Positions 6,875-23,738 of a stretch of 23,738 nt of DNA are shown piece after piece (positions within the stretch are counted from its first letter, which is position 1; the number at the start of each line of letters is the position of its first letter). The position numbers were made by a program, and so were the translations under genes. Source of the DNA: Candidatus Rifleibacteriota bacterium (GTDB lineage: Bacteria; Muiribacteriota; Ozemobacteria; Ozemobacterales; Ozemobacteraceae); the NCBI GenBank assembly GCA_051747585.1, contig JBNJGH010000048.1:1-23738 (forward strand). Direction: 5' to 3'. The notes beneath the pieces were generated by a model, which saw only the letters and a program-made list of their open reading frames with translations, was not told the origin of the DNA and did not search any database.

Positions 6875-7393
6875 TTACCGGGCAATTCGAGATAAAATTG
6901 CCTCAGAATCGGTAAGAACAACCTTCTCATTAAAAATTTTCAATCCATTAGCAAGCAAAACCTCAGAAGTTATGCCTCGCCCATCGATAAGTTGCCCTGA
7001 AAAAGTTCCATCGTAAACCTGACTGGAGCCGCAAGAAGGGCTTTTACTTTTTAAAATCGCAAACCTGGCAGAGTATAGTTTTGCAAAATGAGCGGCCTGC
7101 ATTGCTCCTTTTATGAAATTGTTACTGACATCTTTACCTTTATTACTGATAATTTTTTCCTGCCCGGCTAATATTTGTTTGGCGGACCCCTGAAGTTCTG
7201 ATGGATCCCTGGGTGTGGGTAACCCTCCCAGTTGTTCCGGGCATATCGGAACAAATAATATTCCATTTTGACAGGCTTGCCTGAAAAAAGATTGAAGCCC
7301 CTTCTGCCATGCAGAAGAGGCTTTTGCTTTATAATTACATTCAACACCTGCCAGACAGGCACTGATCAGAACGATTTTATTACTTACCTGCAT
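6875..7393 (-). CDS. DUF523 family Fe-S protein (2-thiouracil desulfurase/TudS-like)
   Basis: ISACLAGVECNY, ICPEQLGGLPTPR and LKSKSPSCG motifs. Start moved to ATG 7393 (MQVSNKIVLISAC); the track's 30 extra residues lie inside the upstream gene. Confidence 0.88.
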   Translation of the reverse strand: MQVSNKIVLISACLAGVECNYKAKASSAWQKGLQSFFRQACQNGILFVPICPEQLGGLPTPRDPSELQGSAKQILAGQEKIISNKGKDVSNNFIKGAMQAAHFAKLYSARFAILKSKSPSCGSSQVYDGTFSGQLIDGRGITSEVLLANGLKIFNEKVVLTDSEAILSRIAR

Positions 7394-9140
7394 CACCTTT
7401 TTCTTCTGGCGGTGCTCTGAAAATTGCCTTTTCCGAATTTTTTTTATCTTTAACCGGCTGAGCACCATCAATATTTTCGGCAACAGGCGGCGCTTTTCTT
7501 AATATTATAGATTTGTTCAAATCCGATGTTTTATTAACTGAATTGAAACTGTTATCATTGCCAAGTATTCCCTGATTCAAGTCAGCTTCTTTATCTGTAT
7601 CTACTACAATTTTTTCTTCTGCAACTGTTGGAAAGTTCTGTTGCACCTGCAAAATAGCCGGCCCGATCAACAAAACCGAAATACTGGGAAAAATAAAGAA
7701 TACAAGCGGAACAAGCAGTTTAACGGGTAGTTTGTTAACTCTTTCTTCTGCCAGAATCATTCGTTGATATCTCATTTGCTCTGCCTGGGCTCTCAAAGTC
7801 GGACCAATTTCTGCCCCTAGACGTTGGGCCTGAATCAGTGAACTGACAAAAGAGAAAAACGAAAGCACTCTAACTCTTTCTGCCATATCGGCAAGAGCTT
7901 CTTCGAGACTTTTACCAACTTTAATATCAGCAAGAAACATTTTGAATTCGACAATAATATCAGTATTGCGTTGTTTTTCGACCACCTTAGCAATACCGCC
8001 TGTAAGATCAAGACCGGACTCTATAGCCAGCGACAAAAGATCGATTACATAAGGAAGCTCGAATTCAATATTTTTCTGGCGTTTACGAATTAAATGGGCA
8101 AGATAAATTCTTGGCAACCTGAAACCTATAGGTATCATTAAAATCAAAACAAGCCAACCAATAAAGCCAATGGCTAATGGATTGATAAAAAGCGCAACAA
8201 GAATAATAAAAAGCAAAGCTGAGCACTCCATCAGTCCAATGAATTCTTCTGAAGAAAACTCATTTGCCTTATTTGAAGCTTCAAGAAGAAATTTTACTTC
8301 ACGCCTGATTTGCTGGAACCATTCACCGGGAATATTTTGATTAAGAGAAGCCATGATACGCAGCAATGGGCGAAGCGGCTTCCACCTTTTCTGTCCCTGA
8401 GCTCTAGCCTCATTAACATTGATCATTGCTTCTTCCGCATCAGGAAGAATAGAAGCAGTCATGCGATTAATGAACAATAATCCCACAATAGCAGCTGTTA
8501 AAGAAGTGATAAGAACGATCTGCCCATAAGGATTTTGAAGCATCGGCAAAAGATACTGGGGATGAAAAGTGGTAATTACAACTGCAAGTACTAGAGGAAT
8601 AGAACCGACCAGGTTACCCGAAAGTCTTGCATGAGCTGTTCCGGCAACAACTTTACCCATTATTTTCTTTCTTTCGGAAACGGTTAAAACAATCTGCCGG
8701 TATAAATCTTCAAGGTTTCCCCCGGTTTCCTGCTGGAAAATAGTTGCATTGACTGCAAGCTTAAGATCGGGGCTGGGAACTCGAGCAGCAAGATTGCTTA
8801 ATGCTTCGACCATTGGCACCCCAAGCCTTCTTTCCTGGACAAGAGACCTGAATTCGTTACTAATAGGCGGAGGGGTCGAAACTGCTACGAGTTCAAAAGC
8901 TTGATCAAGGTTTCTGCCGGCTTTCAAACTTGAACTGATCATCAGCAACACTTCAATTAGCTGATCTTCCAGGCTGGTACTCGTTACACTCTGTAAATAT
9001 TTTGATTTCCGACTGTCGTCTTTATCTTTGCCAGACTTTTTGAGATCGAGACTTAAGTCAAGCTGATCCTCAAGAAAAAAATAAATACCTACAATAACTC
9101 CCAGGATTGCTAAAATCTTAATAGCCGGAAATAAAGTCAT
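7380..9140 (-). CDS. Fused TadB-TadC inner-membrane platform protein (two T2SSF-family domains)
   Basis: TadB-like half: QLIEVLLMISSSLKAG, ETGGNL, TAHARLSG, PQYLLP. TadC-like half: LPRIYL..RQKNIEFELPYVIDLL...ESGL, QAQRLG, AEERVNKLPVKLLVPLVFFIFP. ATGA overlap with the ATPase gene. Confidence 0.9.
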   Translation of the reverse strand: MTLFPAIKILAILGVIVGIYFFLEDQLDLSLDLKKSGKDKDDSRKSKYLQSVTSTSLEDQLIEVLLMISSSLKAGRNLDQAFELVAVSTPPPISNEFRSLVQERRLGVPMVEALSNLAARVPSPDLKLAVNATIFQQETGGNLEDLYRQIVLTVSERKKIMGKVVAGTAHARLSGNLVGSIPLVLAVVITTFHPQYLLPMLQNPYGQIVLITSLTAAIVGLLFINRMTASILPDAEEAMINVNEARAQGQKRWKPLRPLLRIMASLNQNIPGEWFQQIRREVKFLLEASNKANEFSSEEFIGLMECSALLFIILVALFINPLAIGFIGWLVLILMIPIGFRLPRIYLAHLIRKRQKNIEFELPYVIDLLSLAIESGLDLTGGIAKVVEKQRNTDIIVEFKMFLADIKVGKSLEEALADMAERVRVLSFFSFVSSLIQAQRLGAEIGPTLRAQAEQMRYQRMILAEERVNKLPVKLLVPLVFFIFPSISVLLIGPAILQVQQNFPTVAEEKIVVDTDKEADLNQGILGNDNSFNSVNKTSDLNKSIILRKAPPVAENIDGAQPVKDKKNSEKAIFRAPPEEKGDAGK

Positions 9141-11218
9141 TGTGCTGTTTCCTCCTCAGGCTTTTCAACCGGTTTTTGTTTAAATAAATTGGCATGCTTC
9201 TCAAGAAAATCACCCGGAATAGCTTTCATAAATTCGGGTATTGTTCCAGTTGGAACGATCTCGCCTATTACCCGACCATCTTTATCTATCCATTTCTTTT
9301 CAAATTTGAAAAGAGTATTGGCTTTTATAATCGTATCTTCAATTCCGGTTACTTCGACAACTTCAAGTAATTTTCGATTACCGTCAGCCAGACGGCTGGT
9401 CTGAACTACAATATTTACAGAGCTGGCAATTTGTTCACGTATCGCCCGCAGGGGCAAATCTACACCTGCCATTAGAACCATTGTTTCCAGGCGAGCCAGG
9501 GCATCGCGGGGAGAATTTGCATGCAATGTGGTTAACGAGCCATCATGTCCGGTGTTCATAGCCTGCAACATATCGAGAGCTTCGGCTCCGCGACATTCTC
9601 CTACGATAATTCTATCTGGTCTCATTCTCAGAGCATTTCTTACCAGATCTCTTATCGTTATCTGGGTTTTCGCTTCTGTGCCTTGCTGGCGTGCTTCAAG
9701 ACGTCCCAGATTAGTCTGCCCCAGCTTTAACTCAGCTGAATCTTCTATGCAGATAACCCTTTCGGTTGGCAAAATATAATGAGACAAAACATTTAACAAA
9801 GTTGTTTTTCCTGAACTTGCTCCGCCTGAAACAATTATATTTTTCTTCAGGTTGACACAAAGCTCAAGGAATTGGGCCAGTTCAGAGGTAAGAGATTTAA
9901 ATCTGAAAATCAGATCATCCATGCCGTAAGGCACCTTTGAAAACCTTCTGATCGTAATCATCGGACCGGTTAAAGACAGGGGCGGAATTATTGCATGAAC
10001 ACGGGAGCCATCAGACAACCTCGCGTCTACGTAAGGAGTTCGCTCGTTAACCGTACGACCTACCGGCATAAGAATTCTCTCTATAACTGTGCGAACATGG
10101 TCTGCATTGTTAAACTTTCGATCGGTCAGAAGTAATCTGCCATTCTTTTCTACAAATATTTTATCAGGACCATTTACCATGATTTCATCAACTTCGTCGT
10201 CTCGCATAAACTCTTCAAGTGGACCTAATCCTAAGATCTCATCTAAAAGATATTTTTTTACTTCCGACTCGGCATTGTGACCCGGGATATCAGGAGGCGG
10301 AGCCTTTTTAAAAGCAAGTTCGATTTTTTGCTCAACCTGATCTCTAAGTTCGTGATCACTCATTCCGTATTTTTTTTCCATTTCGCTAAGAACATCTGCT
10401 CTAAGATTGCGAAGATAGTCTGCAATTTCTTCGGGAAAAGAATCAAAATTATTTTTTTCTTTGCCGGGTAAAAATCCTTCAGCCGGCATTTGCAATGCTT
10501 TTTTTACCAGTTCGGCAAAACTCTTTTGAACAACTTCGTTATCGTTATTGCCGGTAATTTCATGTCCAAGCGGTATTGAGTGTTCCAAATCAAACAAACT
10601 TGCTTCTTCGTTATCATCCTCAGGGTCTACATGATTTCTGAGCCAGTAAATTTTATCCTTGATTTTCATGCGACGCCGAGCTTCTTCAAGAAACTTCTGA
10701 GCATAAGATGGAGATGGAGGCTGAGAAGTGTAGATATAAAAAAGAACGTCAGCCTTATACATTAAGAATAAAGGTAGAGGAGTCAGTTGAAATGGCAGAT
10801 CAAAGACAACATAACCATCTAACTGGGTAAACAGATCTAAAAAATGATTCAATGATTCACTCAAATCATGTTCGTTTAAGTTAAAACGGGTTTCAAGGGT
10901 TTCTCCGTGATTATTGCCGCAAAATGGAATATAAAAAACTCCATCGATTTGGGAAAAGAATTTCTTGATCGATCTGGGTGTCATGCCCACCCAGTTACCC
11001 ATATAAAAATCAAGGTAACTGTTTTTCAGTTCAGTCTTTTCGCCAATTGTTTCGCAGAGCAATGAAGGTTTAAGGTAGTTGTACTCTATCAAGGCAACGG
11101 GCTTCCCGGTTTTCTCTTTTAATGCTTTGACAAAATTGTATGCAATAAAAGACTTGCCTATGCCGCCCTGAAAACTTGTAAAGACGAATTTAGTCGCTGG
11201 CTTTTCTGCTTTTCCCAT
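9137..11218 (-). CDS. cpaF: CpaF/TadA pilus assembly ATPase with an N-terminal CpaE/TadZ (MinD/ParA-like) domain
   Basis: C-terminal part: GLGPLE..DEIMVNG, Walker A GGASSGKTT, IEDSAEL, LRMRPDRIIVGECRG, MNTGHDGSLTTLHANS. N-terminal ~245 aa: FTSFQGGIGKSFIAYN and YVVFDLP. Confidence 0.92.
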   Translation of the reverse strand: MGKAEKPATKFVFTSFQGGIGKSFIAYNFVKALKEKTGKPVALIEYNYLKPSLLCETIGEKTELKNSYLDFYMGNWVGMTPRSIKKFFSQIDGVFYIPFCGNNHGETLETRFNLNEHDLSESLNHFLDLFTQLDGYVVFDLPFQLTPLPLFLMYKADVLFYIYTSQPPSPSYAQKFLEEARRRMKIKDKIYWLRNHVDPEDDNEEASLFDLEHSIPLGHEITGNNDNEVVQKSFAELVKKALQMPAEGFLPGKEKNNFDSFPEEIADYLRNLRADVLSEMEKKYGMSDHELRDQVEQKIELAFKKAPPPDIPGHNAESEVKKYLLDEILGLGPLEEFMRDDEVDEIMVNGPDKIFVEKNGRLLLTDRKFNNADHVRTVIERILMPVGRTVNERTPYVDARLSDGSRVHAIIPPLSLTGPMITIRRFSKVPYGMDDLIFRFKSLTSELAQFLELCVNLKKNIIVSGGASSGKTTLLNVLSHYILPTERVICIEDSAELKLGQTNLGRLEARQQGTEAKTQITIRDLVRNALRMRPDRIIVGECRGAEALDMLQAMNTGHDGSLTTLHANSPRDALARLETMVLMAGVDLPLRAIREQIASSVNIVVQTSRLADGNRKLLEVVEVTGIEDTIIKANTLFKFEKKWIDKDGRVIGEIVPTGTIPEFMKAIPGDFLEKHANLFKQKPVEKPEEETAQ

Positions 11219-13333: not shown

Positions 13334-14902
13334 GTGAAATACCTTGGTTTTGATGAAATAGTTAGAAATCTGCTTGTTTATTTAAAGGGGCAAATACCTT
13401 CTTTAAGTTCAAAGCATGCCAAAGAAGATATACTTAAACAGGTACAGAATATTACCTTTACCCTTAGAACAACAATCGTTCAGCTTGAAGGCGCTGCTTT
13501 TCATGACCGCGGCAATGAAGATAACAGCAAAATCAAAAAAGAGCTGGAATCGCTGAAGCAAACCAATGCAAAGCTTGAAGAGTCATTATTCCTGGAAATG
13601 AACAAAACCCAGGAACTCAATGATAAGCTTACCAAAGCGAACAAAGATTTTGATTCACGACGCAAGGAAATTGAAGAACTAGAACGGCAACTAAAAGAAA
13701 CCCGACAACAGCTCGAGCAACTTGAAAATTCTCCAAAAGAGGTTGTTAAAGAGGTTGTCAAAGAAGTGCCGGTAGAAGTACAAGTAGACAATACAAAGCA
13801 AATCGATGAACTGAAATCTGAAATCTCTGAACTTGAAACAAAGCTTGGCAAAAACGATGACACAATAAGCAATCTTAAGCAAGCACTGCAAAATAAAGAA
13901 ATTGAGCTTACCAAAACCAAAGAAACTCTGATGGAAGCCATAAAAATGGATAAATCAGAGATAGAAAACCTCAAATCCAGGCTTTCAGAGATAGACTCAG
14001 CCAAAAACGAAAACCAAAACCTCAGAACAAGAATCGCAGAGCTCGAAGCGGAGCTTAGATCAATGCCCTCACCTGAGGTTTATAAAAATAATCTGGCAGC
14101 TGCTGAAGCTAAAATCAACTTCCTTGAAACTGCTCTCGAAGACGCAAAAAATGAGTTAAGTAACTTTCAAGAAAAAGCTTACGATAAAAACCCAGAAATT
14201 CTTGTTGAAGAAAAAGAAGAATTGCAACAAAGAATTGTTGACCTTGAGGCCACTTTACGAGGCTTGATTAATTCCAGAGAAAGGGATTCCAAAGCAGAAA
14301 AATTCGCTTTCAGCCCTGAAGACTGCATATTCCTGTTTGAAACTCTGACCTCTACAGCAAATCGCCTGAGTTTGAGTCCCGAAAACCGTGACATTTATCA
14401 AAAAGCAAAAAAAGGGATTGAACTGTTGCAGGGCTCTAACGCAATACAACAGGTGCTTACAGTCGGACAAATGTTTGATCCAAAAATTCATAAAGCTGTT
14501 AAGTCATTCCGGAGCGAATTCCTTCCCGACAATACTGTTATTTTTGAAGAAAACGCGGGATTTATTTCAGGTAGCAGACTTATTCAAAAAGCTCTTGTAT
14601 GGGTCGGCAAATCAAGCTTTATCTGTACAGAATGCAAAAACCCATGCCGCAGTCATGAATTTTTCTGTCCCAAATGTGGTCTTGAATTAACTGCTCCAGA
14701 TGGCACCAGCAAAAGAGATCTCAACATTCACCCAACAACAGTAGAAAGCAATCTGCCCCTTCTCGACGAGTTGATCAAACAGAATAATTCCAAAGCCGCC
14801 AATGCTCTTATAAAGCATATTGCAAAAGAGCACCCCGACAACCCTGAAATTATTAAAAGACAAAATCTACTGTTAAAAGCAGAAAACCAGGTAGTAAACT
14901 AA
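13334..14902 (+). CDS. Long coiled-coil protein with a GrpE-like domain, Zn ribbon and TPR-like end
   Basis: E/K/L heptad region at about residues 60-315; VGQMFDPKIHKAV...NTVIFEENAGF.SGSRLIQKALVWV resembles the GrpE beta-domain; CTEC-x10-CPKC. Confidence 0.75.
   Translation: MKYLGFDEIVRNLLVYLKGQIPSLSSKHAKEDILKQVQNITFTLRTTIVQLEGAAFHDRGNEDNSKIKKELESLKQTNAKLEESLFLEMNKTQELNDKLTKANKDFDSRRKEIEELERQLKETRQQLEQLENSPKEVVKEVVKEVPVEVQVDNTKQIDELKSEISELETKLGKNDDTISNLKQALQNKEIELTKTKETLMEAIKMDKSEIENLKSRLSEIDSAKNENQNLRTRIAELEAELRSMPSPEVYKNNLAAAEAKINFLETALEDAKNELSNFQEKAYDKNPEILVEEKEELQQRIVDLEATLRGLINSRERDSKAEKFAFSPEDCIFLFETLTSTANRLSLSPENRDIYQKAKKGIELLQGSNAIQQVLTVGQMFDPKIHKAVKSFRSEFLPDNTVIFEENAGFISGSRLIQKALVWVGKSSFICTECKNPCRSHEFFCPKCGLELTAPDGTSKRDLNIHPTTVESNLPLLDELIKQNNSKAANALIKHIAKEHPDNPEIIKRQNLLLKAENQVVN
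13736..13768 (+). repeat. In-frame 12-bp tandem repeat encoding KEVV-KEVV-KEV
   Basis: AAAGAGGTTGTT AAAGAGGTTGTC AAAGAAGTG. Confidence 0.7.
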
Positions 14903-15079: not shown

Positions 15080-18000
15080 TTAACGTCTCTGATCAAATAA
15101 CCAGACCTTAACATCTTTGTTAAAGCCATCTAATTCAAACTCGGTAACGGCTTCTCCGTTAGACTCGCGCACAAAACCCATAACGCCGTTTTTACCAAGG
15201 CCAACATTGTAAGAACCACCGCCAGAAATTTGAACAGGCTTGAATCCCGGCAAGCTTACCGAAGAATGAATACCCTGCAAATCAAGCCCCTTGAAACCAT
15301 ACTGCGCAGGGTCTTCATTAAGATGATCATTTATATAAAGGCTCATGCCCCACCTCGATAAGGTAGTATCAAAATTCTCGGCGGTAACGGATTCTACATT
15401 TGATACACCCGTCAACCCCGACTTAACAAGAGCTCTGGTAATATCACGATAGGAGGTCCCATACCTTCCCTCTTGCGCAAGGAACCGTATTAATAGATAA
15501 GATAACCCATAGCTGTTTATACCCGACCACTCGGTAACTGACAGATCAGCAAAGTTTTCCTGGGACAACTTGATCAATAAAGCGGTGTTTTCGTCGCCTG
15601 AAAAAATGCCATAACCGCACACTTCCTCAGAATACTTTGATAAACCCTCGTTAAGCCAGGTCGCTTCAAAAACTCCCTGACCTGCATTTATTCTTTTCTG
15701 CCAGAAATTGACCATATGTTGAAACTCATGGGCAAGAGTTCCATATCTGGTAATATCGTTATTTAAGCTGTATTTTACGTAAAACATTTTACGTCCGTTA
15801 CTTTCTCGCAGCTGAATGTCAGAAGGTTCATTGGCAAACAAATCTGCGCCATAAAAAATACCTGCAATTCCAGGGCTCAAAGCATCTGTCAACAAAATTG
15901 TTATTTGAGGCTGACCATCAGGACCGACTTCAGGCTCATCACCAAATACATCTCGGACTTTTGGCAGAATTCCTTCTTCAAAACGCTTACGAACCTCTGA
16001 GACAACAGTTGAAGACGGCGAATTAATCGCATTGTCTACATAAATAAAAACGTTTTCGCTTTCTCCATAGCGAGTTGCCTTTATCTGATTGTTTGGATAA
16101 GGAGTCGAAGTTGCAACCGATTCATAGGCAGGAATGTAAAAGTCTTCAACCTCATCAGCTCTTTGTTGTGCTATAACACTGCCTCTCAGGCCGGTTTTGC
16201 CAAACATGACTGAAGGCATTTTTTTTGAGGCCAATCTTTTTTCCAGTTCCCGAAAAGCTGCTTCAGGTGAAGAATCAAACCATTCAATCGCCGTTTTCTG
16301 ACTGGCTCTAACCGTAAAATCCGCTGAATTGCCAGCTGCAACAGCAACTGCAAAAGAATCTCTACCGGTTTCCAATCCCGAAACAGAAACGGTTACATTG
16401 TCTCCGGGCACAGCTGAAATCGGAAAACCACTTGATTTGAAATTATCAGGCACAGGTATTTCAGATGCTATGGTAAAGCTGGTGGTCATACCTTCAGTCA
16501 TAAGATTACCGGCCGGGTCACGTATTTTATTATCTGCAATTACAAACTCATGATAACTGCCCGGAAGCCATCCACCTGAAGGAAGAAAGCTGGCAACAAC
16601 TTCATTATTCCAAATCCAACTGCCGCCCTGAACAGGGCTGAACGAGAAAGCGGTTTCTGCAACACTTTTGTCTACAGGCTCATTGAAGGTAACTTCGACG
16701 ACGGCGTCTGAAGATACCGATAATGCACCATCTTCAGGTTTTACCGACAATACTTCCGGCGCTGTCTGATCTGTATCGGTAAGGGTGTAAAAGCTGTAAA
16801 TCTCGGACATAATCGGCTCTGTAACTGAATCATCTGCAGTAATCTGCCAGTAATATTGCCGCCCTTTTTCAAGCTCGTTTATAACGGCAAAGCTTTTTTC
16901 CGATAAATTTCCTGCCAGCATGGTTGAAGGCGGCGAAACCGTATCTAGATACAGCTCATAAGTTACTTTATCGCCGTCGGGATCACCACCGGACCATGAA
17001 AAAACCGGTTCCAAAGAAACATCGGTCGCTGCATTCTCCGGAAAAATCGCTACCGGCACCTCTGGTGCCTGATTAATTTTGGCAGCCGTAGTAAACGACC
17101 AAATTTTCGAATCGGCATTGGTTAAACCATCTTCATCTCGCGCAATCACCTGGAGAAAATATCTGGTAGAATTTTCCAGATATTCATCGGCACTGTAAAC
17201 CGGAGCTACGAGGTTCTCTCCTTTTTTAGCCAGAGGAAAAGTTTTTCCGAAGTAAACATCATAAGTCAGACTGTCTCCATCAGGGTCTTCGGCTGTCCAA
17301 CGCATTTGCACATCTATGGCAACATCAGTCGAGCCACTTGCCGGATAAGCCAGAACAGGATTTTGTGGCGGGTTATTAGGCGGTGCATAGGTAGAAAACT
17401 GCCAAACCGGGCCTTTGGTTTCTTTACCCCTGTTATCGGCTGCGATGATCTGCCAGTAATAGGTTTGCTCGGCTTCGAGATTTTCAACCTGATAATTGGT
17501 ATTTCGGGTGCTGGTTAAAAGCTCCAAGCTTTCACTGTCACTGCCAAGATAGAAAGAATAAGTTACTATATCGTCGAGGTCCGGATCTCCTCCGGTCCAG
17601 GCAAACCGAAATGAAAGAAGTTGATCTGTAGCCAGATCTTCAGGAAAAGGATTTGCCGGCTGATAAGGCGAAAAATTATCTTCATCGCCTGTGGTGAACT
17701 GCCAGATTGATGTTTGCGAAATTGCCCCATAGGGATCTCGGCTGATAATTTGCCAGTAATAAATCGTTTTAACTTCGAGATTCCTAATCTGAAATTCAGG
17801 CTGGCTCAGTTTCTCGCCCACCAGCTCAGGCTCCTGCCCTCTCTGGTAAAAAAAGACGTCATAATTCAATTGATCACCATCAGGGTCACTGCCGGACCAT
17901 CTCAAGGTTACCTCTGTCCCCATATTGTCGCTTAAATTAGCGGGAACAGGATCAAAAGCAACTTCTGGCGGTTTATTGTTGGGATTTACAGGTAATCCGC

Positions 18001-18934
18001 CACCGGCAAGCACGTCAATTTCGACTTCAGATTTAGATTCGGCACCTTTTTCATCTGTAGCTGTAACTGTAATGGTTACTTTACCTTCAAAATCTGGAGC
18101 GGTAAAAATTGTATTTGCCCCTGTATCCTGATGAAATTTCCCGGCACTGCATGACCAATGGTAAGTTAGTTGATCACCGTCGGGGTCGAAGCCAGAAGCA
18201 AAAACAGTACCCTCATTATTTGTTCTAATAGTTTTAAAACTCTGCTCAATTGAAACTATTGGAGCACGGTTTTTATCTACAGAAGTAAGAGGAGTGAGTT
18301 TAACAAACAACCGGCCTCTTTTAAGAGAACTAAAATCTAAAAGGAAAGCCGTCTCTTTGTAGCCGGTTGCAGAAATAGTTACCGGCCAAACGCCTTCGGG
18401 AAAAGGGCCGATTTCTACATCGCCATTACCGGATGAAAGATGTTCCCTGCCCCAGATCTTAACTCTGGCATTAGCTAAAGCCACCTTCGATTTTAAATCG
18501 GTAATATTGAGTTTTACTTTGTAGGGAGCATTTTCTAACTGAAGCGGATCAGATATTTTTAAGGTTTCATATTCTCCGGTAAGTTTGATCTGGTCTGTTC
18601 TTTGCTTGTAATTGTGTATACCTGATACCAGTTCGGCGATAAGATGATACTTACCCGCTGGTATTTCGTTAAGAATAAAATTGCCATCTTCGTCGGCGGT
18701 AGCATAAAACTCAGGTTTTTCTTCAACAAATACTTTTGTTCCCTTGACAGGAACATTAGTGCTCTGAGCCCTTGAATTAAGGTTAACTACAGGCGAAATT
18801 ACCCTGCCCTCGATATTTGCTACTATTGTTGCGGGAGTGGGTTCTATCCAGTCACTCAGCCCCCCGTCAGTGCTGCCGCAACCTGTTATGAAAGAAGCAA
18901 GAGCCGTAAACAAAATGATGATTTTTATTTTCAT
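15080..18934 (-). CDS. Large lipoprotein: carboxypeptidase-regulatory-like, Ig and four Fn3-like repeats, an SbsA-type Ig domain, and a C-terminal HExxH zinc metalloprotease (M30-like)
   Basis: Lipobox ITG-C19; repeats with W.x(2-3)DPDGD..Y...YYWQI; DQTAPEVLSVKP...VTFNEPVD...RDPAGN; TLAHEFQH (HEFQH at 15716-15730) with downstream WLNEGLS. Confidence 0.85.
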   Translation of the reverse strand: MKIKIIILFTALASFITGCGSTDGGLSDWIEPTPATIVANIEGRVISPVVNLNSRAQSTNVPVKGTKVFVEEKPEFYATADEDGNFILNEIPAGKYHLIAELVSGIHNYKQRTDQIKLTGEYETLKISDPLQLENAPYKVKLNITDLKSKVALANARVKIWGREHLSSGNGDVEIGPFPEGVWPVTISATGYKETAFLLDFSSLKRGRLFVKLTPLTSVDKNRAPIVSIEQSFKTIRTNNEGTVFASGFDPDGDQLTYHWSCSAGKFHQDTGANTIFTAPDFEGKVTITVTATDEKGAESKSEVEIDVLAGGGLPVNPNNKPPEVAFDPVPANLSDNMGTEVTLRWSGSDPDGDQLNYDVFFYQRGQEPELVGEKLSQPEFQIRNLEVKTIYYWQIISRDPYGAISQTSIWQFTTGDEDNFSPYQPANPFPEDLATDQLLSFRFAWTGGDPDLDDIVTYSFYLGSDSESLELLTSTRNTNYQVENLEAEQTYYWQIIAADNRGKETKGPVWQFSTYAPPNNPPQNPVLAYPASGSTDVAIDVQMRWTAEDPDGDSLTYDVYFGKTFPLAKKGENLVAPVYSADEYLENSTRYFLQVIARDEDGLTNADSKIWSFTTAAKINQAPEVPVAIFPENAATDVSLEPVFSWSGGDPDGDKVTYELYLDTVSPPSTMLAGNLSEKSFAVINELEKGRQYYWQITADDSVTEPIMSEIYSFYTLTDTDQTAPEVLSVKPEDGALSVSSDAVVEVTFNEPVDKSVAETAFSFSPVQGGSWIWNNEVVASFLPSGGWLPGSYHEFVIADNKIRDPAGNLMTEGMTTSFTIASEIPVPDNFKSSGFPISAVPGDNVTVSVSGLETGRDSFAVAVAAGNSADFTVRASQKTAIEWFDSSPEAAFRELEKRLASKKMPSVMFGKTGLRGSVIAQQRADEVEDFYIPAYESVATSTPYPNNQIKATRYGESENVFIYVDNAINSPSSTVVSEVRKRFEEGILPKVRDVFGDEPEVGPDGQPQITILLTDALSPGIAGIFYGADLFANEPSDIQLRESNGRKMFYVKYSLNNDITRYGTLAHEFQHMVNFWQKRINAGQGVFEATWLNEGLSKYSEEVCGYGIFSGDENTALLIKLSQENFADLSVTEWSGINSYGLSYLLIRFLAQEGRYGTSYRDITRALVKSGLTGVSNVESVTAENFDTTLSRWGMSLYINDHLNEDPAQYGFKGLDLQGIHSSVSLPGFKPVQISGGGSYNVGLGKNGVMGFVRESNGEAVTEFELDGFNKDVKVWLFDQRR

Positions 18935-18965: not shown

Positions 18966-20402
18966 TTAAGAGGCCATAGCTTCATCGATCAGGTCAATGT
19001 TAGTATTGGCTCGATCACGCAAATCAAGTGCCCGAAGTTTTGAAGAGCCTTGATTAACTAAGAATTTAGCTGCATTATAGGCCTGTACTTCTTGAGTTTC
19101 ATCACCATATTCACCCATCCATTCAACATCTATATTGTCATAGGCGTTTTTTAAGGCTGTGGCTTCTTCTCGACCGGCTTCTCCTTCCAGAACCTTGTCC
19201 CCTTCTTCGTCAGTATAAGTTTGATCCTCCAAATCAGTAGCCATATCAATCATTAGTTCGGTTGGTTCAAAACCGTCTTCATCCTTCATAGATTCATTCA
19301 TTGCTTTGATGGCTCGATCTTGAAGTTTCATATCATAAGCTTTCTTATACAGATCTTTTTCTTCACCCGACATTGAGGAATAACCATCGATTGATTTACC
19401 ATGAAATTCTCGTTCTTTTTCTGCTGTATAGCCTTGAAGTTCCTCAACTGCTGCTCTTGTTTCTTCAACATCATCAGCTCGTTCAAGCTGTTTTTTCATA
19501 TCCTTGACTTTCTGGCCCTCACTTTTACTCCAGAATGCCAAAGTATCAAGAAGACCACTTCCTGTATCGGTGTTATCAATATTGTCATTAATATCATTCA
19601 ATGCATCGAGCGCCTGTTGCAGAATATCCTCTTGTGTGGTTTTCATTCCAGCAAGCTGATCGTCATTCATGGTCATCAATTCTTCAAGATCAAATGTACC
19701 ACTTCCCATTCCAAGTGAAGTATCCTGAGATGTATCCTCTTCCATCACATCGTCTGTTTCCATTTGTGCCAGATCAAAATTTGAAACATAGGTTTTATTG
19801 GTGTTTTTATAATATTCATCACGCATCACCAAAGATGTTCGTTCGATGTGAAACATTTCATTTTTGCTGCCTGCGATTCTTTTTTTACCGGTTAACTCTA
19901 TATCCAGCATAGCCTCTCGACCAGCCTTGAAGTCTTCATCGGTAGCTTCAAGGTCTGCCGCCTCGAGAGCAGCTTCATCTACAGACCTTACAATAGCTAC
20001 ACTGTCAATATTGGGAGACAGGATTTTAAGGCTATCGTCAGTTTTACGGGTAAGCAAACCGCTATTTAACTCATACTCGACATTCATAGTTGAGTCCTGA
20101 GCAATTTTACCGTCTTCTGTTTCGATAAAACGTTCAAAAGTAATTTTCATTGCAGTGCCATCTGGACTCTGAGCACCAGGCGGAGCTTCAAAGCTTCCTT
20201 CTTTAATGGCTTTAAAGTCCTTTTCCATATTATTGGAAGCCATGCGCAATTCACTTTCCAGGCTCTGTTTGGCATGCGAACGGGCAATTTGCCTTTGAAC
20301 TCTCATCCAGACTCCATAAATAGCGGTCAAGACAATGGTAGATAAAAACAACGCTACCATTACCTCTATTAAGGTCATTCCCTTTCTTTTAAACCTGAAC
20401 AT
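18966..20402 (-). CDS. Type IV prepilin-like protein (PilW/GspJ-like) with a large acidic helical C-terminal extension
   Basis: Class III signal MFRFKRKG|MTLIEVMVALFLSTIVLTAIYGVW with E5. Confidence 0.85.
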   Translation of the reverse strand: MFRFKRKGMTLIEVMVALFLSTIVLTAIYGVWMRVQRQIARSHAKQSLESELRMASNNMEKDFKAIKEGSFEAPPGAQSPDGTAMKITFERFIETEDGKIAQDSTMNVEYELNSGLLTRKTDDSLKILSPNIDSVAIVRSVDEAALEAADLEATDEDFKAGREAMLDIELTGKKRIAGSKNEMFHIERTSLVMRDEYYKNTNKTYVSNFDLAQMETDDVMEEDTSQDTSLGMGSGTFDLEELMTMNDDQLAGMKTTQEDILQQALDALNDINDNIDNTDTGSGLLDTLAFWSKSEGQKVKDMKKQLERADDVEETRAAVEELQGYTAEKEREFHGKSIDGYSSMSGEEKDLYKKAYDMKLQDRAIKAMNESMKDEDGFEPTELMIDMATDLEDQTYTDEEGDKVLEGEAGREEATALKNAYDNIDVEWMGEYGDETQEVQAYNAAKFLVNQGSSKLRALDLRDRANTNIDLIDEAMAS

Positions 20403-20416
20403 TTTGCTCCCCCCCC

Positions 20417-20905
20417 TTAAATAGCTTCAGAATTGTAATAAGAATTTGCAGCTCTTACAACTCTTCTGCCAAACCTTTCGTCATCTTTGGCTCCCTTATC
20501 GCGCCAGAAAATTTCAACTTCGAACCAGACCTCGGAAATCTGGTCTAAATCGTTTTTACGAACGGTTAAATTAGCTTCACAGCCATAATCTTTCATGGTG
20601 TCACTGTTTTTTTCAAAAAAAGTTTCAATACTTTCGGAAGTTTCTTTATAAAATTGCGGATGAACAGTGAAACTTTCACCAGTGGTAAGATCAGTATAAT
20701 GTCTCTGATAAACTTTAAAAGGCACATGTTTGCATTCTTCGATCAGCTCTTGGGCCAATCTGGTGGCTTTGGCATAATGACCAATCTTAGCTGTAGAGGT
20801 CGCTCCATAGTCAACCGTTCTTATGATAGGAATAAAAGCAACCGCAATAATAAAAGCAGAAATTACTATTTCCAGAAGCGACAAACCTTTCTTATCAGCA
20901 ATCAA
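20417..20905 (-). CDS. Type IV prepilin-like protein (PilV/GspI-like), 162 aa
   Basis: DKKG|LSLLEIVISAFIIAVAFIPI, then ATRLAQELIEE. Start moved to TTG 20905, which has a GGAGG SD and a TTGA overlap with the upstream stop. Confidence 0.85.
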   Translation of the reverse strand: MIADKKGLSLLEIVISAFIIAVAFIPIIRTVDYGATSTAKIGHYAKATRLAQELIEECKHVPFKVYQRHYTDLTTGESFTVHPQFYKETSESIETFFEKNSDTMKDYGCEANLTVRKNDLDQISEVWFEVEIFWRDKGAKDDERFGRRVVRAANSYYNSEAI

Positions 20906-23652
20906 AATGACCTCCAGGAAGCCCAAAGCGGACTGAAAGATACATGATAACGCCTGGGATCAAATTTACCCCTTTCAGGATGCAGGCTTGCAAGAGAGCT
21001 TCTGACTCTTGAAGACACATAATCAACGGCAACAGTACCACTCATTGCGGCTTTACTAAACTGATTCGTTACCCAGTTGCCAATAAAATGCATACTGGAA
21101 TCGGCATGAACATATAAACCTTTGTCGGTATAAACACTGCCCTGAATTTCTCTTTGTACCCCGCCGTCCAACACTATCAATCCACCGTTTCTTATCATGA
21201 GAGTAAATACGGTTAAATCATCGGCAGTACGATCCTGAACTTTGATGTTAGAACCAAGATAAAAATTTCCGCTGCAAACAATCATCCCTTTACCACAAAC
21301 ATTAAATTCCCCATCGAGACCGGGCGGGTTAAATGGATTCGCCGAATCACCTACCGAGCCCGAAATATATGTAATCCCATTTAAGACAAATATTTTTTTC
21401 CCGTTGACTTCTGTCATCCTGTTTGGCAAATCATCCAGGAAAGCCTGATAATTCTCGTAATAATAAGTAGCTTTTTTGGCATATTGCTCAAGGGTATAAA
21501 GATTGGGCGGCATATTTTCAAGTTTGGCCGGATCATATTCATAAGTCTCAAGGTCTATATCGTCATTTTCGTCATTCGCCTTCAAAGGGGTTAAATTATA
21601 ATCATACTTGGTTAGAACTTCCATCGTATACCAGAGAGGAATTACTAATGGAGGCGGTGGAATTACCAGAGGCGGGACAGATGGAATCACAAGCCTGTCC
21701 ATCGGATTCAGACCGATAATACACATTTTCCATCTCCGGTATTTCTTCAGAACGTTTCCTTCAATTTCTCTGGTAAGCGTAGGATAAAAGCCTGCATAGC
21801 CAAAGAAGTGTGTTTTATTTGCTCCTACTCCAGTATTTGGAATTGTGGCCATCCAGTTATTAGTGCCCATATAGGCCATATCCCATTGCTGAAATGCCTT
21901 GGTTACACCTGCCACAGAAGGGGGCACCACCTTGTCGACCAATGGTTTCAATGCAAGCTCAATTGCAACTGCGATAGGATGTGCGCTTAATCTTCCTACA
22001 TCGGGCATAATATTGATTCTACTTGGGCCAACCAGTTCTTTTAGATAATTTTTTGGAGTTTCAATACTTTTACTCATGTCTTTTGCATATTCAAGCTTGT
22101 AATCGTTTTTTACTGAAACGGAAAAGCCATCAGTGCTTGTCTGCCCGGTATTTCCTCCTGTCATGCCAGAGGGAACATCGCTTGATGTGCTGGTATTTCG
22201 GCGCGAAACTTCAGCATTAACATTGTATTTACCGCCAGCCAGCGCCATGCGCGTTCTACTGCTGAGAATCAGTGCGGTTTCCATACCACCCAGGGTTCTT
22301 ACAATCGTCCCGCTGTCATCACCGGTTACTCTAGGCGCATTCCAGTCACCTACCATCCCTACATTACAAACCAGAGGCTGGGTACCATCAGAACTTTCAT
22401 CTATATAATTAACTCTTATTAATCCCGGAACCTCACGACTTGCAAGCTCTTCTTCGGTTAGTTCGGTCGGCCCGGGCAATGCAACCTCTTTTATTTTGTT
22501 CCAAAGTCCGCTATAGTCGTAATTACTAACGAAAAACTGACCGCCATAGTTATTAAATGAAATTTTGTTATTGGCAAAGTTCCCTATAAAGCAGCTGTAC
22601 ATAGATGCAGGAGGTTCGCAGTCAGCAACTTTAAAATCTTTTACAGCGGCAACCCGCCTTTTTGCAGTATAGCCGTCCTTGTAGGTTATGGAAGCTTCAC
22701 TTTCAAGTTTTATCTGCCCGTATTTTTCCAGGTATTGTTCGTAATCAGAAGTATCGAAAGTTATACCCGAAGGCCATAAAACTGACGGATCTGTTGGGAT
22801 GTTTATTTTATCTTTATCGAAAACAATTTCAATCGGATACCGGCGTTCCCCACCGCTTAATAATTCATTAATCAGCATTTTGGCCATAAAATCAATGCTG
22901 GTAAGTTCTTTAAAAGATCTTGGCTCCCCGGCTATGTTTATTTCGGGCATAAGTTTATCAATTATGCCTGCAACATTTATGTTAATAATAGTAAAACCAC
23001 CAATGCTGATGGGTATTGAAAAGCCAAGCCAGCTTAAATCATCCGGGAACCCTATCTGAAGTGGCGAATAACCTTCTCCATTGAGAAAATTCTCTACATC
23101 GGGTCGCATATTCCAACCGATATCGACTCCGGGAACTTTGAAATCAGGATAATCAGAGCCGGGTGCAATTCGGAAAGCCTTTTCGACGTTTACTTTTACG
23201 TTCACGTCATACTCTTCAATGCCTTCCCGGGTCATATATTCTACTATCTTATCAAGACGATTTTCGTCGTCGCCTTCCTGGAGTTCTTCTTTGGTTAAAA
23301 TAATTTCTTCAGTCACGCTATCTGGTAATTGTAACAACTCATCGGAACCAAGATTTCCACCTAAACCAAGAGTGACCCCTGAATCAATCTTAGCAGGCAA
23401 ACGAAGCTTAACAGCCAGAGAATCCGCATCGACCTCAGCAGGATCAATTTCATTTATTTTATCCGAAATAATACTCATGGCTCTTTCGAGAGCTGCTTCT
23501 GCAAGACTGGCTGCGTGAAGTCCTTTGACCGACATGGTTGTCTGCCTGCCTTCTTCAATGGTAGAGGTCATAAACATTGTAGATGCAAAAATAATTACAC
23601 CTAAAACGCCAATTACAATAACAAAAGCGCTACCCTGTTTTTTACGGTTCAT
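20902..23652 (-). CDS. Very large PilX/GspK-like pilin protein, about 916 aa
   Basis: MNRKKQG|SAFVIVIGVLGVIIFASTMFM (no E5) followed by AASLAEAALERA. Start moved to ATG 23652, with GGAGG 8 nt upstream. Gly/hydrophobic beta-repeats at the C-terminus. Confidence 0.8.
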   Translation of the reverse strand: MNRKKQGSAFVIVIGVLGVIIFASTMFMTSTIEEGRQTTMSVKGLHAASLAEAALERAMSIISDKINEIDPAEVDADSLAVKLRLPAKIDSGVTLGLGGNLGSDELLQLPDSVTEEIILTKEELQEGDDENRLDKIVEYMTREGIEEYDVNVKVNVEKAFRIAPGSDYPDFKVPGVDIGWNMRPDVENFLNGEGYSPLQIGFPDDLSWLGFSIPISIGGFTIININVAGIIDKLMPEINIAGEPRSFKELTSIDFMAKMLINELLSGGERRYPIEIVFDKDKINIPTDPSVLWPSGITFDTSDYEQYLEKYGQIKLESEASITYKDGYTAKRRVAAVKDFKVADCEPPASMYSCFIGNFANNKISFNNYGGQFFVSNYDYSGLWNKIKEVALPGPTELTEEELASREVPGLIRVNYIDESSDGTQPLVCNVGMVGDWNAPRVTGDDSGTIVRTLGGMETALILSSRTRMALAGGKYNVNAEVSRRNTSTSSDVPSGMTGGNTGQTSTDGFSVSVKNDYKLEYAKDMSKSIETPKNYLKELVGPSRINIMPDVGRLSAHPIAVAIELALKPLVDKVVPPSVAGVTKAFQQWDMAYMGTNNWMATIPNTGVGANKTHFFGYAGFYPTLTREIEGNVLKKYRRWKMCIIGLNPMDRLVIPSVPPLVIPPPPLVIPLWYTMEVLTKYDYNLTPLKANDENDDIDLETYEYDPAKLENMPPNLYTLEQYAKKATYYYENYQAFLDDLPNRMTEVNGKKIFVLNGITYISGSVGDSANPFNPPGLDGEFNVCGKGMIVCSGNFYLGSNIKVQDRTADDLTVFTLMIRNGGLIVLDGGVQREIQGSVYTDKGLYVHADSSMHFIGNWVTNQFSKAAMSGTVAVDYVSSRVRSSLASLHPERGKFDPRRYHVSFSPLWASWRSF

Positions 23653-23666
23653 TTTTATAGCCTCCA

Positions 23667-23738
23667 CTATTCAAACTTGGCCGGGAATTCAGCCAAAGTT
23701 GTAGCCAATCCTCCTGGCACCTCGGTCGGTTTGATATA
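23667..23738 (-). CDS. 3' end of an upstream gene of the same operon (partial)
   Basis: Open frame YIKPTEVPGGLATTLAEFPAKFE-TAG ending just before the SD of the next gene. Confidence 0.55.
   Translation of the reverse strand, partial: YIKPTEVPGGLATTLAEFPAKFE

What the first reader, a model, noticed from the sequence alone, without database searches (positions are those of the whole stretch)
7380..9140. TadB and TadC fused in one polypeptide
Seen: one uninterrupted ORF with a TadB-like half (about 1-230, with a short N-terminal region), a linker (ASILPDAEEAMINVNEARAQGQKRW, near 8385-8460), a TadC-like half, and an extra ~85-aa charged tail. Established: Tad systems use separate tadB and tadC, whereas PilC, GspF and archaeal ArlJ platforms carry both domains in one chain, and Tad is thought to derive from an archaeal system by fission of that gene. 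Inference: either a secondary re-fusion fixing 1:1 stoichiometry, or a retained pre-fission state.
Basis: partly seen in the sequence, partly recalled or inferred. Interest (0 to 1): 0.72.

Follow-up and report, generated by a model that had tools for sequence, protein, structure and literature searches.

The report
Re-fused TadB-TadC pilus platform in Riflebacteria
One family of uncultured bacteria has joined the two normally separate membrane proteins of the Tad pilus motor (TadB and TadC) into a single gene, beside a second fused gene for the motor ATPase; the pair likely forms a compact second motor that borrows its pilins and outer-membrane pore from an ordinary Tad cluster elsewhere in the genome, and similar joins have arisen more than once.

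Summary
Window 7380-9140 (-) is one 586-aa ORF with a TadB half, then a TadC half. It is full-length in one frame in 45 of 51 genomes of the family (Ozemobacteraceae, Ca. Riflebacteria); the only apparent split is a scaffold gap.

It is a secondary re-fusion, not a retained pre-fission state. Each half nests among stand-alone TadB or TadC proteins, and its sister lineage is an unfused tadA-tadB-tadC triplet in four other families of the phylum. The order B-then-C is the reverse of archaeal two-domain platforms. Three membrane helices were lost, which keeps both domains cytoplasmic.

The upstream gene is a TadZ-TadA fusion with intact ATPase motifs. The locus has no pilin, secretin or peptidase, while a full Tad cluster with split tadB/tadC lies elsewhere. 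It is most likely a second, two-gene Tad motor.

Other TadB-TadC fusions exist: separate ones in databases and one reported in Micrococcus luteus (PMC4322843). This scan noted the same module on another genome (e1-930803). Verdict: new variant of a known kind.

The parts
7380..9140 (-). tadBC: fused TadB-TadC inner-membrane platform, 586 aa, six predicted membrane helices
9078..9134 (-). N-terminal membrane anchor (aa 3-21); the TadB hairpin that follows it in unfused relatives is absent
   Evidence: hydropathy scan; unfused TadB proteins show 5 helices
8571..8942 (-). TadB-type T2SSF stretch (aa 67-190)
   Evidence: model matches PilC/GspF cytoplasmic domains at Z 12-13.6
8469..8624 (-). Two membrane helices closing the TadB half (aa 173-224); the second stands where TadC's own N-terminal anchor would be
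   Evidence: several stand-alone TadC N-termini align to profile positions about 205-215
8217..8468 (-).
8097..8216 (-). TadC membrane hairpin (aa 309-348)
7665..8045 (-). TadC-type T2SSF stretch and last membrane helix (aa 366-492)
7383..7640 (-). Variable, low-confidence C-terminal tail (aa 501-586), predicted to lie outside the cytoplasm
   Evidence: (pLDDT about 40-50)
9137..11218 (-). tadZA: TadZ/MinD-like domain without receiver domain (aa 1-245) fused to a TadA/CpaF ATPase with intact motifs, 693 aa; overlaps the tadBC start by 4 bases
6875..7396 (-). DUF523/2-thiouracil desulfurase-like gene overlapping the tadBC end; conserved neighbour, no functional link shown
   Evidence: PF04463, E 4e-39; present in 43 of 50 related loci

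Best explanation
The ORF is a lineage-wide secondary re-fusion of tadB and tadC that likely works as a one-chain version of the TadB/TadC heterodimer, driven by the adjacent TadZ-TadA fusion ATPase, so that the two genes would form a second Tad motor using the Flp pilins, peptidase and secretin encoded elsewhere in the genome. Shown: the fusion, its conservation, its descent from an unfused tadA-tadB-tadC triplet, intact ATPase motifs, the absence of other tad genes from the locus and their presence elsewhere. Inferred from hydropathy: TadB lost its N-terminal hairpin and TadC its N-terminal anchor (9 helices to 6), so both six-helix domains stay cytoplasmic. Inferred from Caulobacter CpaF/CpaG/CpaH (PMC11300603): the two domains pack as a pair across neighbouring subunits of the ATPase hexamer and pass its motion to pilins in the membrane; the TadZ-like domain would position the motor. 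Which pilin it moves, and in which direction, is untested.
For: Conservation: full-length single frame in 45 of 51 family genomes; 46 of 50 loci. Descent: the fused clade is sister to the split triplet in the concatenated TadA+B+C tree (local support 100) and in the TadB (96) and TadC (99) trees. In a domain tree rooted on PilC (LG+C20), the fused B half lies inside two starred clades of stand-alone TadB (98/91, 99/96) and the fused C half inside two of stand-alone TadC (100/99, 100/97). Origin from the family's own canonical tad pair is rejected (p-AU 6e-63 for B, 6e-4 for C). Order: 8 of 9 fused C halves hit the N-terminal half of the archaeal UpsF or BasF models (E 3e-6 to 3e-3), and stand-alone TadBs that hit archaeal models hit their second half, as Denise et al. 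state. Motor: Walker A, Asp box, Walker B and His box present in 68 of 68 TadZA proteins. Dependence: none of 50 loci holds rcpA, cpaB, tadV, flp, tadE or tadG; G000 has one RcpA, one CpaB, one TadV and two Flp pilins; 32 of 32 family genomes at least 90% complete have two or more TadA. Precedent for two tad loci needed together: M. luteus.
Against: No experiment and no expression evidence. Sharing of Flp pilins rests on absence and co-occurrence only, and kin are not independent. The genome holds about 97 type IVa-like pilin genes and 7 further secretin-like genes, so other partners are available. In one sister family the unfused triplet lies directly behind a type IVa-like pilin gene. The archaeal-order test is weak: 0 of 9 fused B halves hit an archaeal model, and no archaeal sequence was in the trees. 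The TadA and concatenated trees had only 6 proteobacterial outgroup rows. The sister triplet has no TadZ and the Z domain had no match in those families, so its origin is unknown.
Confidence: 0.65

Rival explanations
1. Same re-fusion, but the two-gene motor has been rewired to type IVa/T2SS-like pilins or pseudopilins and a non-Tad secretin, making a hybrid machine.
For: A type IVa-like pilin gene lies directly upstream of tadA2 on the same strand in family f8 (L063, L065, L067, L069; a cut homologue in L071) and about 2 kb upstream in f6 (L059). In the window a PilX/V/W-like operon ends 7.7 kb upstream on the same strand. Base rate in G000 is 2.7% within 3 kb and 7.2% within 10 kb. The B-then-C order weakly matches domains 1 and 2 of bacterial PilC/HofC.
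Against: No pilin found upstream in f7 (3.3 kb seen) or f9 (5.7 kb seen). In the window, opposite-strand ABC and GrpE-like genes intervene. The genome already has at least six two-domain PilC/GspF genes for those pilins. Base rates in f6-f9 were not measured. The system was not seen without another Tad system in well-assembled genomes.
Confidence: 0.15
2. The second motor is a specialised regulator or retraction motor of the canonical Tad pilus rather than a second general assembly motor.
For: Strict co-occurrence with the canonical locus. A distinct, fixed Walker A (SGGASSGKTT or SGGAGSGKTT in 68 of 68, against SGGTGSGKTT in the canonical TadA). A fused positioning domain.
Against: CpaF alone drives both directions in Caulobacter. 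A retraction ATPase such as PilT shares the platform and would not need its own TadB/TadC (own knowledge).
Confidence: 0.14
3. Retained pre-fission state: the gene descends directly from a two-domain archaeal platform.
For: Two T2SSF domains in one chain. No archaeal rows were in my trees.
Against: The domain order is reversed relative to archaeal platforms. Both halves nest among stand-alone TadB/TadC with starred support, so this would need several independent fissions. The adjacent ATPase is a bacterial TadA sister to split-triplet TadAs.
Confidence: 0.03
4. Artefact or neutral read-through of a lost stop codon in a decaying locus.
For: In some canonical loci tadB and tadC are in frame with only a stop and a short spacer between them (for example L079), so read-through fusions are easy to make.
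Against: Conserved from 84% down to 56% identity across about 98 proteins, with fixed spacing and clean loss of three helices. A more distant relative (P0129/P0488) has both fusions.
Confidence: 0.02

Closest known systems
Tad (type IVc) platform pair TadB/TadC; Caulobacter CpaG/CpaH with ATPase CpaF (PMC11300603)
   Same: One T2SSF domain per half; halves group with TadB and TadC; gene follows a TadA-type ATPase in the order tadZ-tadA-tadB-tadC.
   Different: One chain of six helices instead of two chains of about five and four; TadZ fused to TadA; no pilin, secretin, peptidase or RcpC gene in the locus.
Micrococcus luteus tad-2 TadB/C (Mlut_18180; PMC4322843)
   Same: Reported as tadB and tadC fused into one ORF, in a genome with two tad loci that are both needed.
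   Different: Three membrane helices reported; monoderm host; locus has its own pilins. I could not fetch the sequence. Denise et al. say actinobacterial TadBs lacking TadC are single-domain, so its two-domain status is unverified here.
Bdellovibrio bacteriovorus TadZA (bioRxiv 10.64898/2026.07.08.737194)
   Same: ParA/MinD-like TadZ fused to the N-terminus of TadA, followed by tadB.
   Different: There tadC is a separate, distant gene and TadZA belongs to the main tad locus; here it is a second orphan motor. Orthology not tested.
Archaeal two-domain platforms (ArlJ/FlaJ, UpsF, BasF) and bacterial PilC/GspF
   Same: Two T2SSF domains in one polypeptide; same six-helix fold.
   Different: Archaeal order is TadC-like then TadB-like, the reverse of this protein; PilC/GspF domains form a separate clade and have three helices in about 400 aa.

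Membership tests
Tad platform TadB/TadC | Each component carries one T2SSF (PF00482) domain | tested here: met
   One stretch per half
Tad platform TadB/TadC | Domains group with TadB and TadC, apart from PilC/GspF | tested here: met
   TadC clade 100/100 and PilC clade 100/100; B half nested among TadB
Tad platform TadB/TadC | Adjacent TadA/CpaF ATPase with intact catalytic motifs | tested here: met
   (68 of 68)
Tad platform TadB/TadC | Encoded by two separate genes | tested here: not met
   Single ORF
Complete Tad system in one locus | flp, tadV, rcpA, rcpC/cpaB and tadE/G with the motor genes | tested here: not met
   0 of 50 loci (blastp to the genome's own tad genes, flanks up to 10 kb, some short); present elsewhere in G000
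Complete Tad system in one locus | Assembles Flp pilins | not testable with these tools
   Needs reconstitution or genetics
Archaeal two-domain platform (pre-fission state) | Order: TadC-like domain first, TadB-like second (PMC6668835) | tested here: not met
   8 of 9 fused C halves hit the N-terminal half of the UpsF/BasF models; 0 of 9 B halves hit an archaeal model; E-values weak
Archaeal two-domain platform (pre-fission state) | Branches outside stand-alone bacterial TadB/TadC | tested here: not met
   Nested at two starred nodes for each half; archaeal sequences were not in the tree
PilC/GspF | About 400 aa, three membrane helices, PilB/GspE partner | tested here: not met
   505-aa core, six helices, TadA partner
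TadZA fusion ATPase (Bdellovibrio type) | N-terminal ParA/MinD-like domain with deviant Walker A joined to TadA | tested here: met
   one ORF in 41 of 46 loci holding TadA
TadZA fusion ATPase (Bdellovibrio type) | Common origin with the Bdellovibrio protein; binds a polarity hub | not tested
   The Bdellovibrio sequence was not fetched

The most novel reading that the evidence does not exclude
An ancient second Tad motor of this phylum, lacking its own pilin and secretin, has been compressed into two genes and its platform re-fused in a PilC-like order, and it now builds filaments from the genome's very large set of type IVa-like pilins: a Tad/type IVa hybrid machine.
Probability: 0.15. Interest if true: 0.75.

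Novelty: new variant of a known kind. Interest (0 to 1): 0.4.

Why it matters
It shows that the fission which defines Tad platforms is reversible, that the reversal has happened more than once, and how topology was solved (loss of three helices). A natural single-chain TadB-TadC supports the predicted 1:1 heterodimer and, with TadZA, gives a two-protein construct for structural work on a motor-platform complex whose stoichiometry is open (PMC11300603, PMC10191384). It does not reveal the ancestral state and is not a new kind of machine unless the pilin partner proves unusual.

Tried and rejected
(1) Apparent fusions of canonical tadB-tadC suggested by the 'open frame' column: all 20 canonical family loci fetched (L079-L098) have separate genes; rejected.
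(2) Apparent natural split in G011/L058: 10-N scaffold gap.
(3) Reads: no served run held more than 0.17 of the words. The four runs laid gave 12 short pieces, none across the linker; an RNA-library piece crosses the tadZA-tadBC junction but shows no transcript.
(4) Complex prediction of TadBC (1-505) with the TadA part: no answer, score 0.01; no evidence either way.
(5) PDB sequence search with the profile: 0 hits at E 0.1. Foldseek found nothing at E 0.001; VIA-align found PilC/GspF cytoplasmic domains.
(6) The FlaJ family search in G000 gave no useful hit; the Atlas did not hold the sequence. I obtained no archaeal platform sequence and no M. luteus TadB/C.
(7) The first domain tree included a wrongly picked non-PilC ORF and was redone.
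(8) The promoter scan was at chance level (13 against 9.7 +/- 3.2).
(9) AU tests joining the Riflebacteria fusion with P0292 alone were not rejected (p 0.06 and 0.18); with P0316 borderline (0.054 and 0.036).
(10) PMC5720513 and PMC4572677 do not describe a fusion in the passages seen.
(11) L043 has TadZ and TadA in separate overlapping frames and L057 is a second copy with a truncated TadA; neither was followed up.

Full report
Observation. Window 7380-9140 (-) is one ORF of 586 aa with two PF00482 stretches. Against the genome's own proteins the N half matches the stand-alone TadB on contig C38 and the C half the stand-alone TadC. An AlphaFold2 model (mean pLDDT 79) shows two helical domains, one matching the cytoplasmic domains of PilC, OutF and EpsF at Z 12-13.6, and a disordered tail. 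Homologues named by sources are Candidatus Riflebacteria, Ozemobacter and Rifleibacterium.

Is it real? Of the 99 best proteins (the query included), 84 carry both domains in B-then-C order; the spacing is 119-133 aa and the tail 6-281 aa. Among the 51 genomes of the family, 45 have a full-length match in one frame, 2 have contig-edge pieces that span the linker, 2 have edge pieces that do not, 1 has a scaffold gap and 1 (70% complete) has none (my count from the listed rows). Of 50 fetched loci, 46 hold both halves in one ORF. Read data did not cover the linker.

Surroundings. The upstream ORF (9137-11218, 693 aa, 4-base overlap) joins a ParA/MinD-like TadZ domain without receiver domain to a TadA ATPase. 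All four ATPase motifs are present in 68 of 68 homologues, and the two parts are one ORF in 41 of 46 loci with TadA. Downstream lies a DUF523/thiouracil desulfurase-like gene (43 of 50 loci). None of the 50 loci holds rcpA, cpaB, tadV, flp, tadE or tadG within the flanks held. The genome has a complete canonical cluster on C38 with separate tadB and tadC, and two Flp pilins on C47. All 20 canonical loci fetched from the family are split. All 32 family genomes at least 90% complete have two or more TadA.

Origin. All 8 genomes of four other families of the phylum (f6-f9) carry an orphan, unfused tadA-tadB-tadC triplet without TadZ, besides another Tad set. In FastTree trees of 39 rows (14 fused, 7 of the 8 split triplets, 12 canonical, 6 proteobacterial) the fused set is sister to the split triplet in the concatenated, TadB and TadC trees (100, 96, 99; that fork of the TadA-only tree was cut from the output). 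In a 64-row domain tree rooted on 8 PilC domains (LG+C20) the fused B half sits within stand-alone TadB proteins at two starred nodes, and the fused C half within stand-alone TadC proteins at two starred nodes. AU tests reject descent from the family's own canonical pair. Denise et al. (PMC6668835, passages) report that TadC aligns with the first and TadB with the second domain of archaeal platforms. In line with this, 8 of 9 fused C halves hit the N-terminal half of the UpsF or BasF models; of 10 stand-alone TadBs scanned, 3 hit the second half of UpsF or ArlJ, 2 hit the first domain of HofC/PilC and 5 hit no platform model, and the genome's own TadB also hit the second half of UpsF; no fused B half hit an archaeal model. 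These hits are weak and no archaeal sequence was in the trees, but both lines point to re-fusion of adjacent bacterial genes.

Topology (inferred from a hydropathy scan). Unfused TadB shows 5 helices and unfused TadC 3-4 (4 in the canonical TadC and P0240); the fusion shows 6. The TadB hairpin before the first domain and the TadC N-terminal anchor are gone. TadB ends in the cytoplasm, so dropping TadC's anchor is what keeps the second domain inside. The tail would face the periplasm and is absent or short in a quarter of homologues, so it is unlikely to be essential.

How it likely works. In Caulobacter, CpaG/CpaH are modelled as a back-to-back heterodimer spanning two CpaF subunits, and CpaF drives extension and retraction (PMC11300603, passages). 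I infer that TadBC is that heterodimer in one chain and TadZA its motor, with TadZ giving position as proposed for Bdellovibrio TadZA (bioRxiv 10.64898/2026.07.08.737194, passages). As the locus lacks pilins and a secretin and always accompanies another Tad set, it most likely shares Flp, TadV and RcpA. The main rival is use of type IVa-like pilins: such genes lie directly upstream of the unfused triplet in f8 and 2 kb upstream in f6, not in f7 or f9, and 7.7 kb upstream in the window, against base rates of 2.7% (3 kb) and 7.2% (10 kb) in a genome with about 97 such genes.

What is known. M. luteus tad-2 is reported to have tadB and tadC fused in one ORF, and both of its tad loci are needed for transformation (PMC4322843, passages and Discussion); I could not check that sequence. 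A profile search of 1.84 billion representatives listed, among its best 150, three further B-then-C proteins that I treated as fusions (P0246, 441 aa, cluster of 46; P0292, 535 aa; P0316, 422 aa), one C-then-B singleton (P0353) and one that looks frameshifted (P0360). One clade of all fusions is rejected (p-AU 0.0004 and 0.0045), so there are at least two origins. None of 80 other TadA-type metagenome loci had a B-C fusion, while TadZ-TadA fusions occurred in at least 8. Searches for a description in Riflebacteria found nothing relevant (listings only, and subscription journals are mostly missing). PMC10191384 (passages) restates the fission model. Supplements were not read; those of the bioRxiv preprint could bear on fusion frequency. 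The scan noted this module on another genome and TadZ-TadA fusions several times.

Verdict. Observation confirmed; secondary re-fusion about 95% likely; role as a second Tad motor sharing the canonical accessory parts about 65%. New variant of a known kind; interest 0.40.

Noticed in passing
L193:6021-10553, L194:1549-6777, L195:4608-9860, L196:1631-6448 (G065, G063, G066, G067): Single ORFs of 1510-1750 aa with three TadA/CpaF ATPase domains in tandem, most motifs intact; families f6-f9 have 3-15 TadA-like matches per genome. Two such chains would make one hexamer, echoing the two-fold, three-state CpaF ring. Not searched in print.
   Followed up: partly
G000, genome-wide; window 18966-23667: About 97 type IVa-like pilin genes by motif scan, many in scattered PilX/V/W-like sets, with at least six PilC/GspF genes and eight secretin-like genes.
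   Followed up: partly
L059, L061, L063, L065, L067, L069, L071, L073: Orphan unfused tadA-tadB-tadC triplets without TadZ, Flp or secretin in four families; in f8 they lie between a type IVa-like pilin gene and hrcA-grpE-dnaK-like genes.
   Followed up: yes
P0246 (46-member cluster), P0316, P0292, P0353: Other TadB-TadC fusions; P0316 has a PilC-like three-helix layout and P0353 the reverse C-then-B order.
   Followed up: partly
window 13334-14902: 522-aa protein with a long coiled coil, a GrpE-like domain and a C-terminal Cys-rich stretch, present in 28 of 50 related loci.
   Followed up: no
window 15080-18934: 1284-aa predicted lipoprotein with Ig/Fn3 repeats and a C-terminal HEFQH motif suggesting a metallopeptidase, directly behind the pilin-like genes.
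   Followed up: no
L127, L131, L154: Canonical-type loci with rcpA and a fused tadZA followed closely by a DUF192 gene, with no tadB/tadC detected between them.
   Followed up: no
L037/L057 (one contig): The tadBC gene occurs twice on one contig with identical match statistics, the second copy behind a truncated tadA.
   Followed up: no
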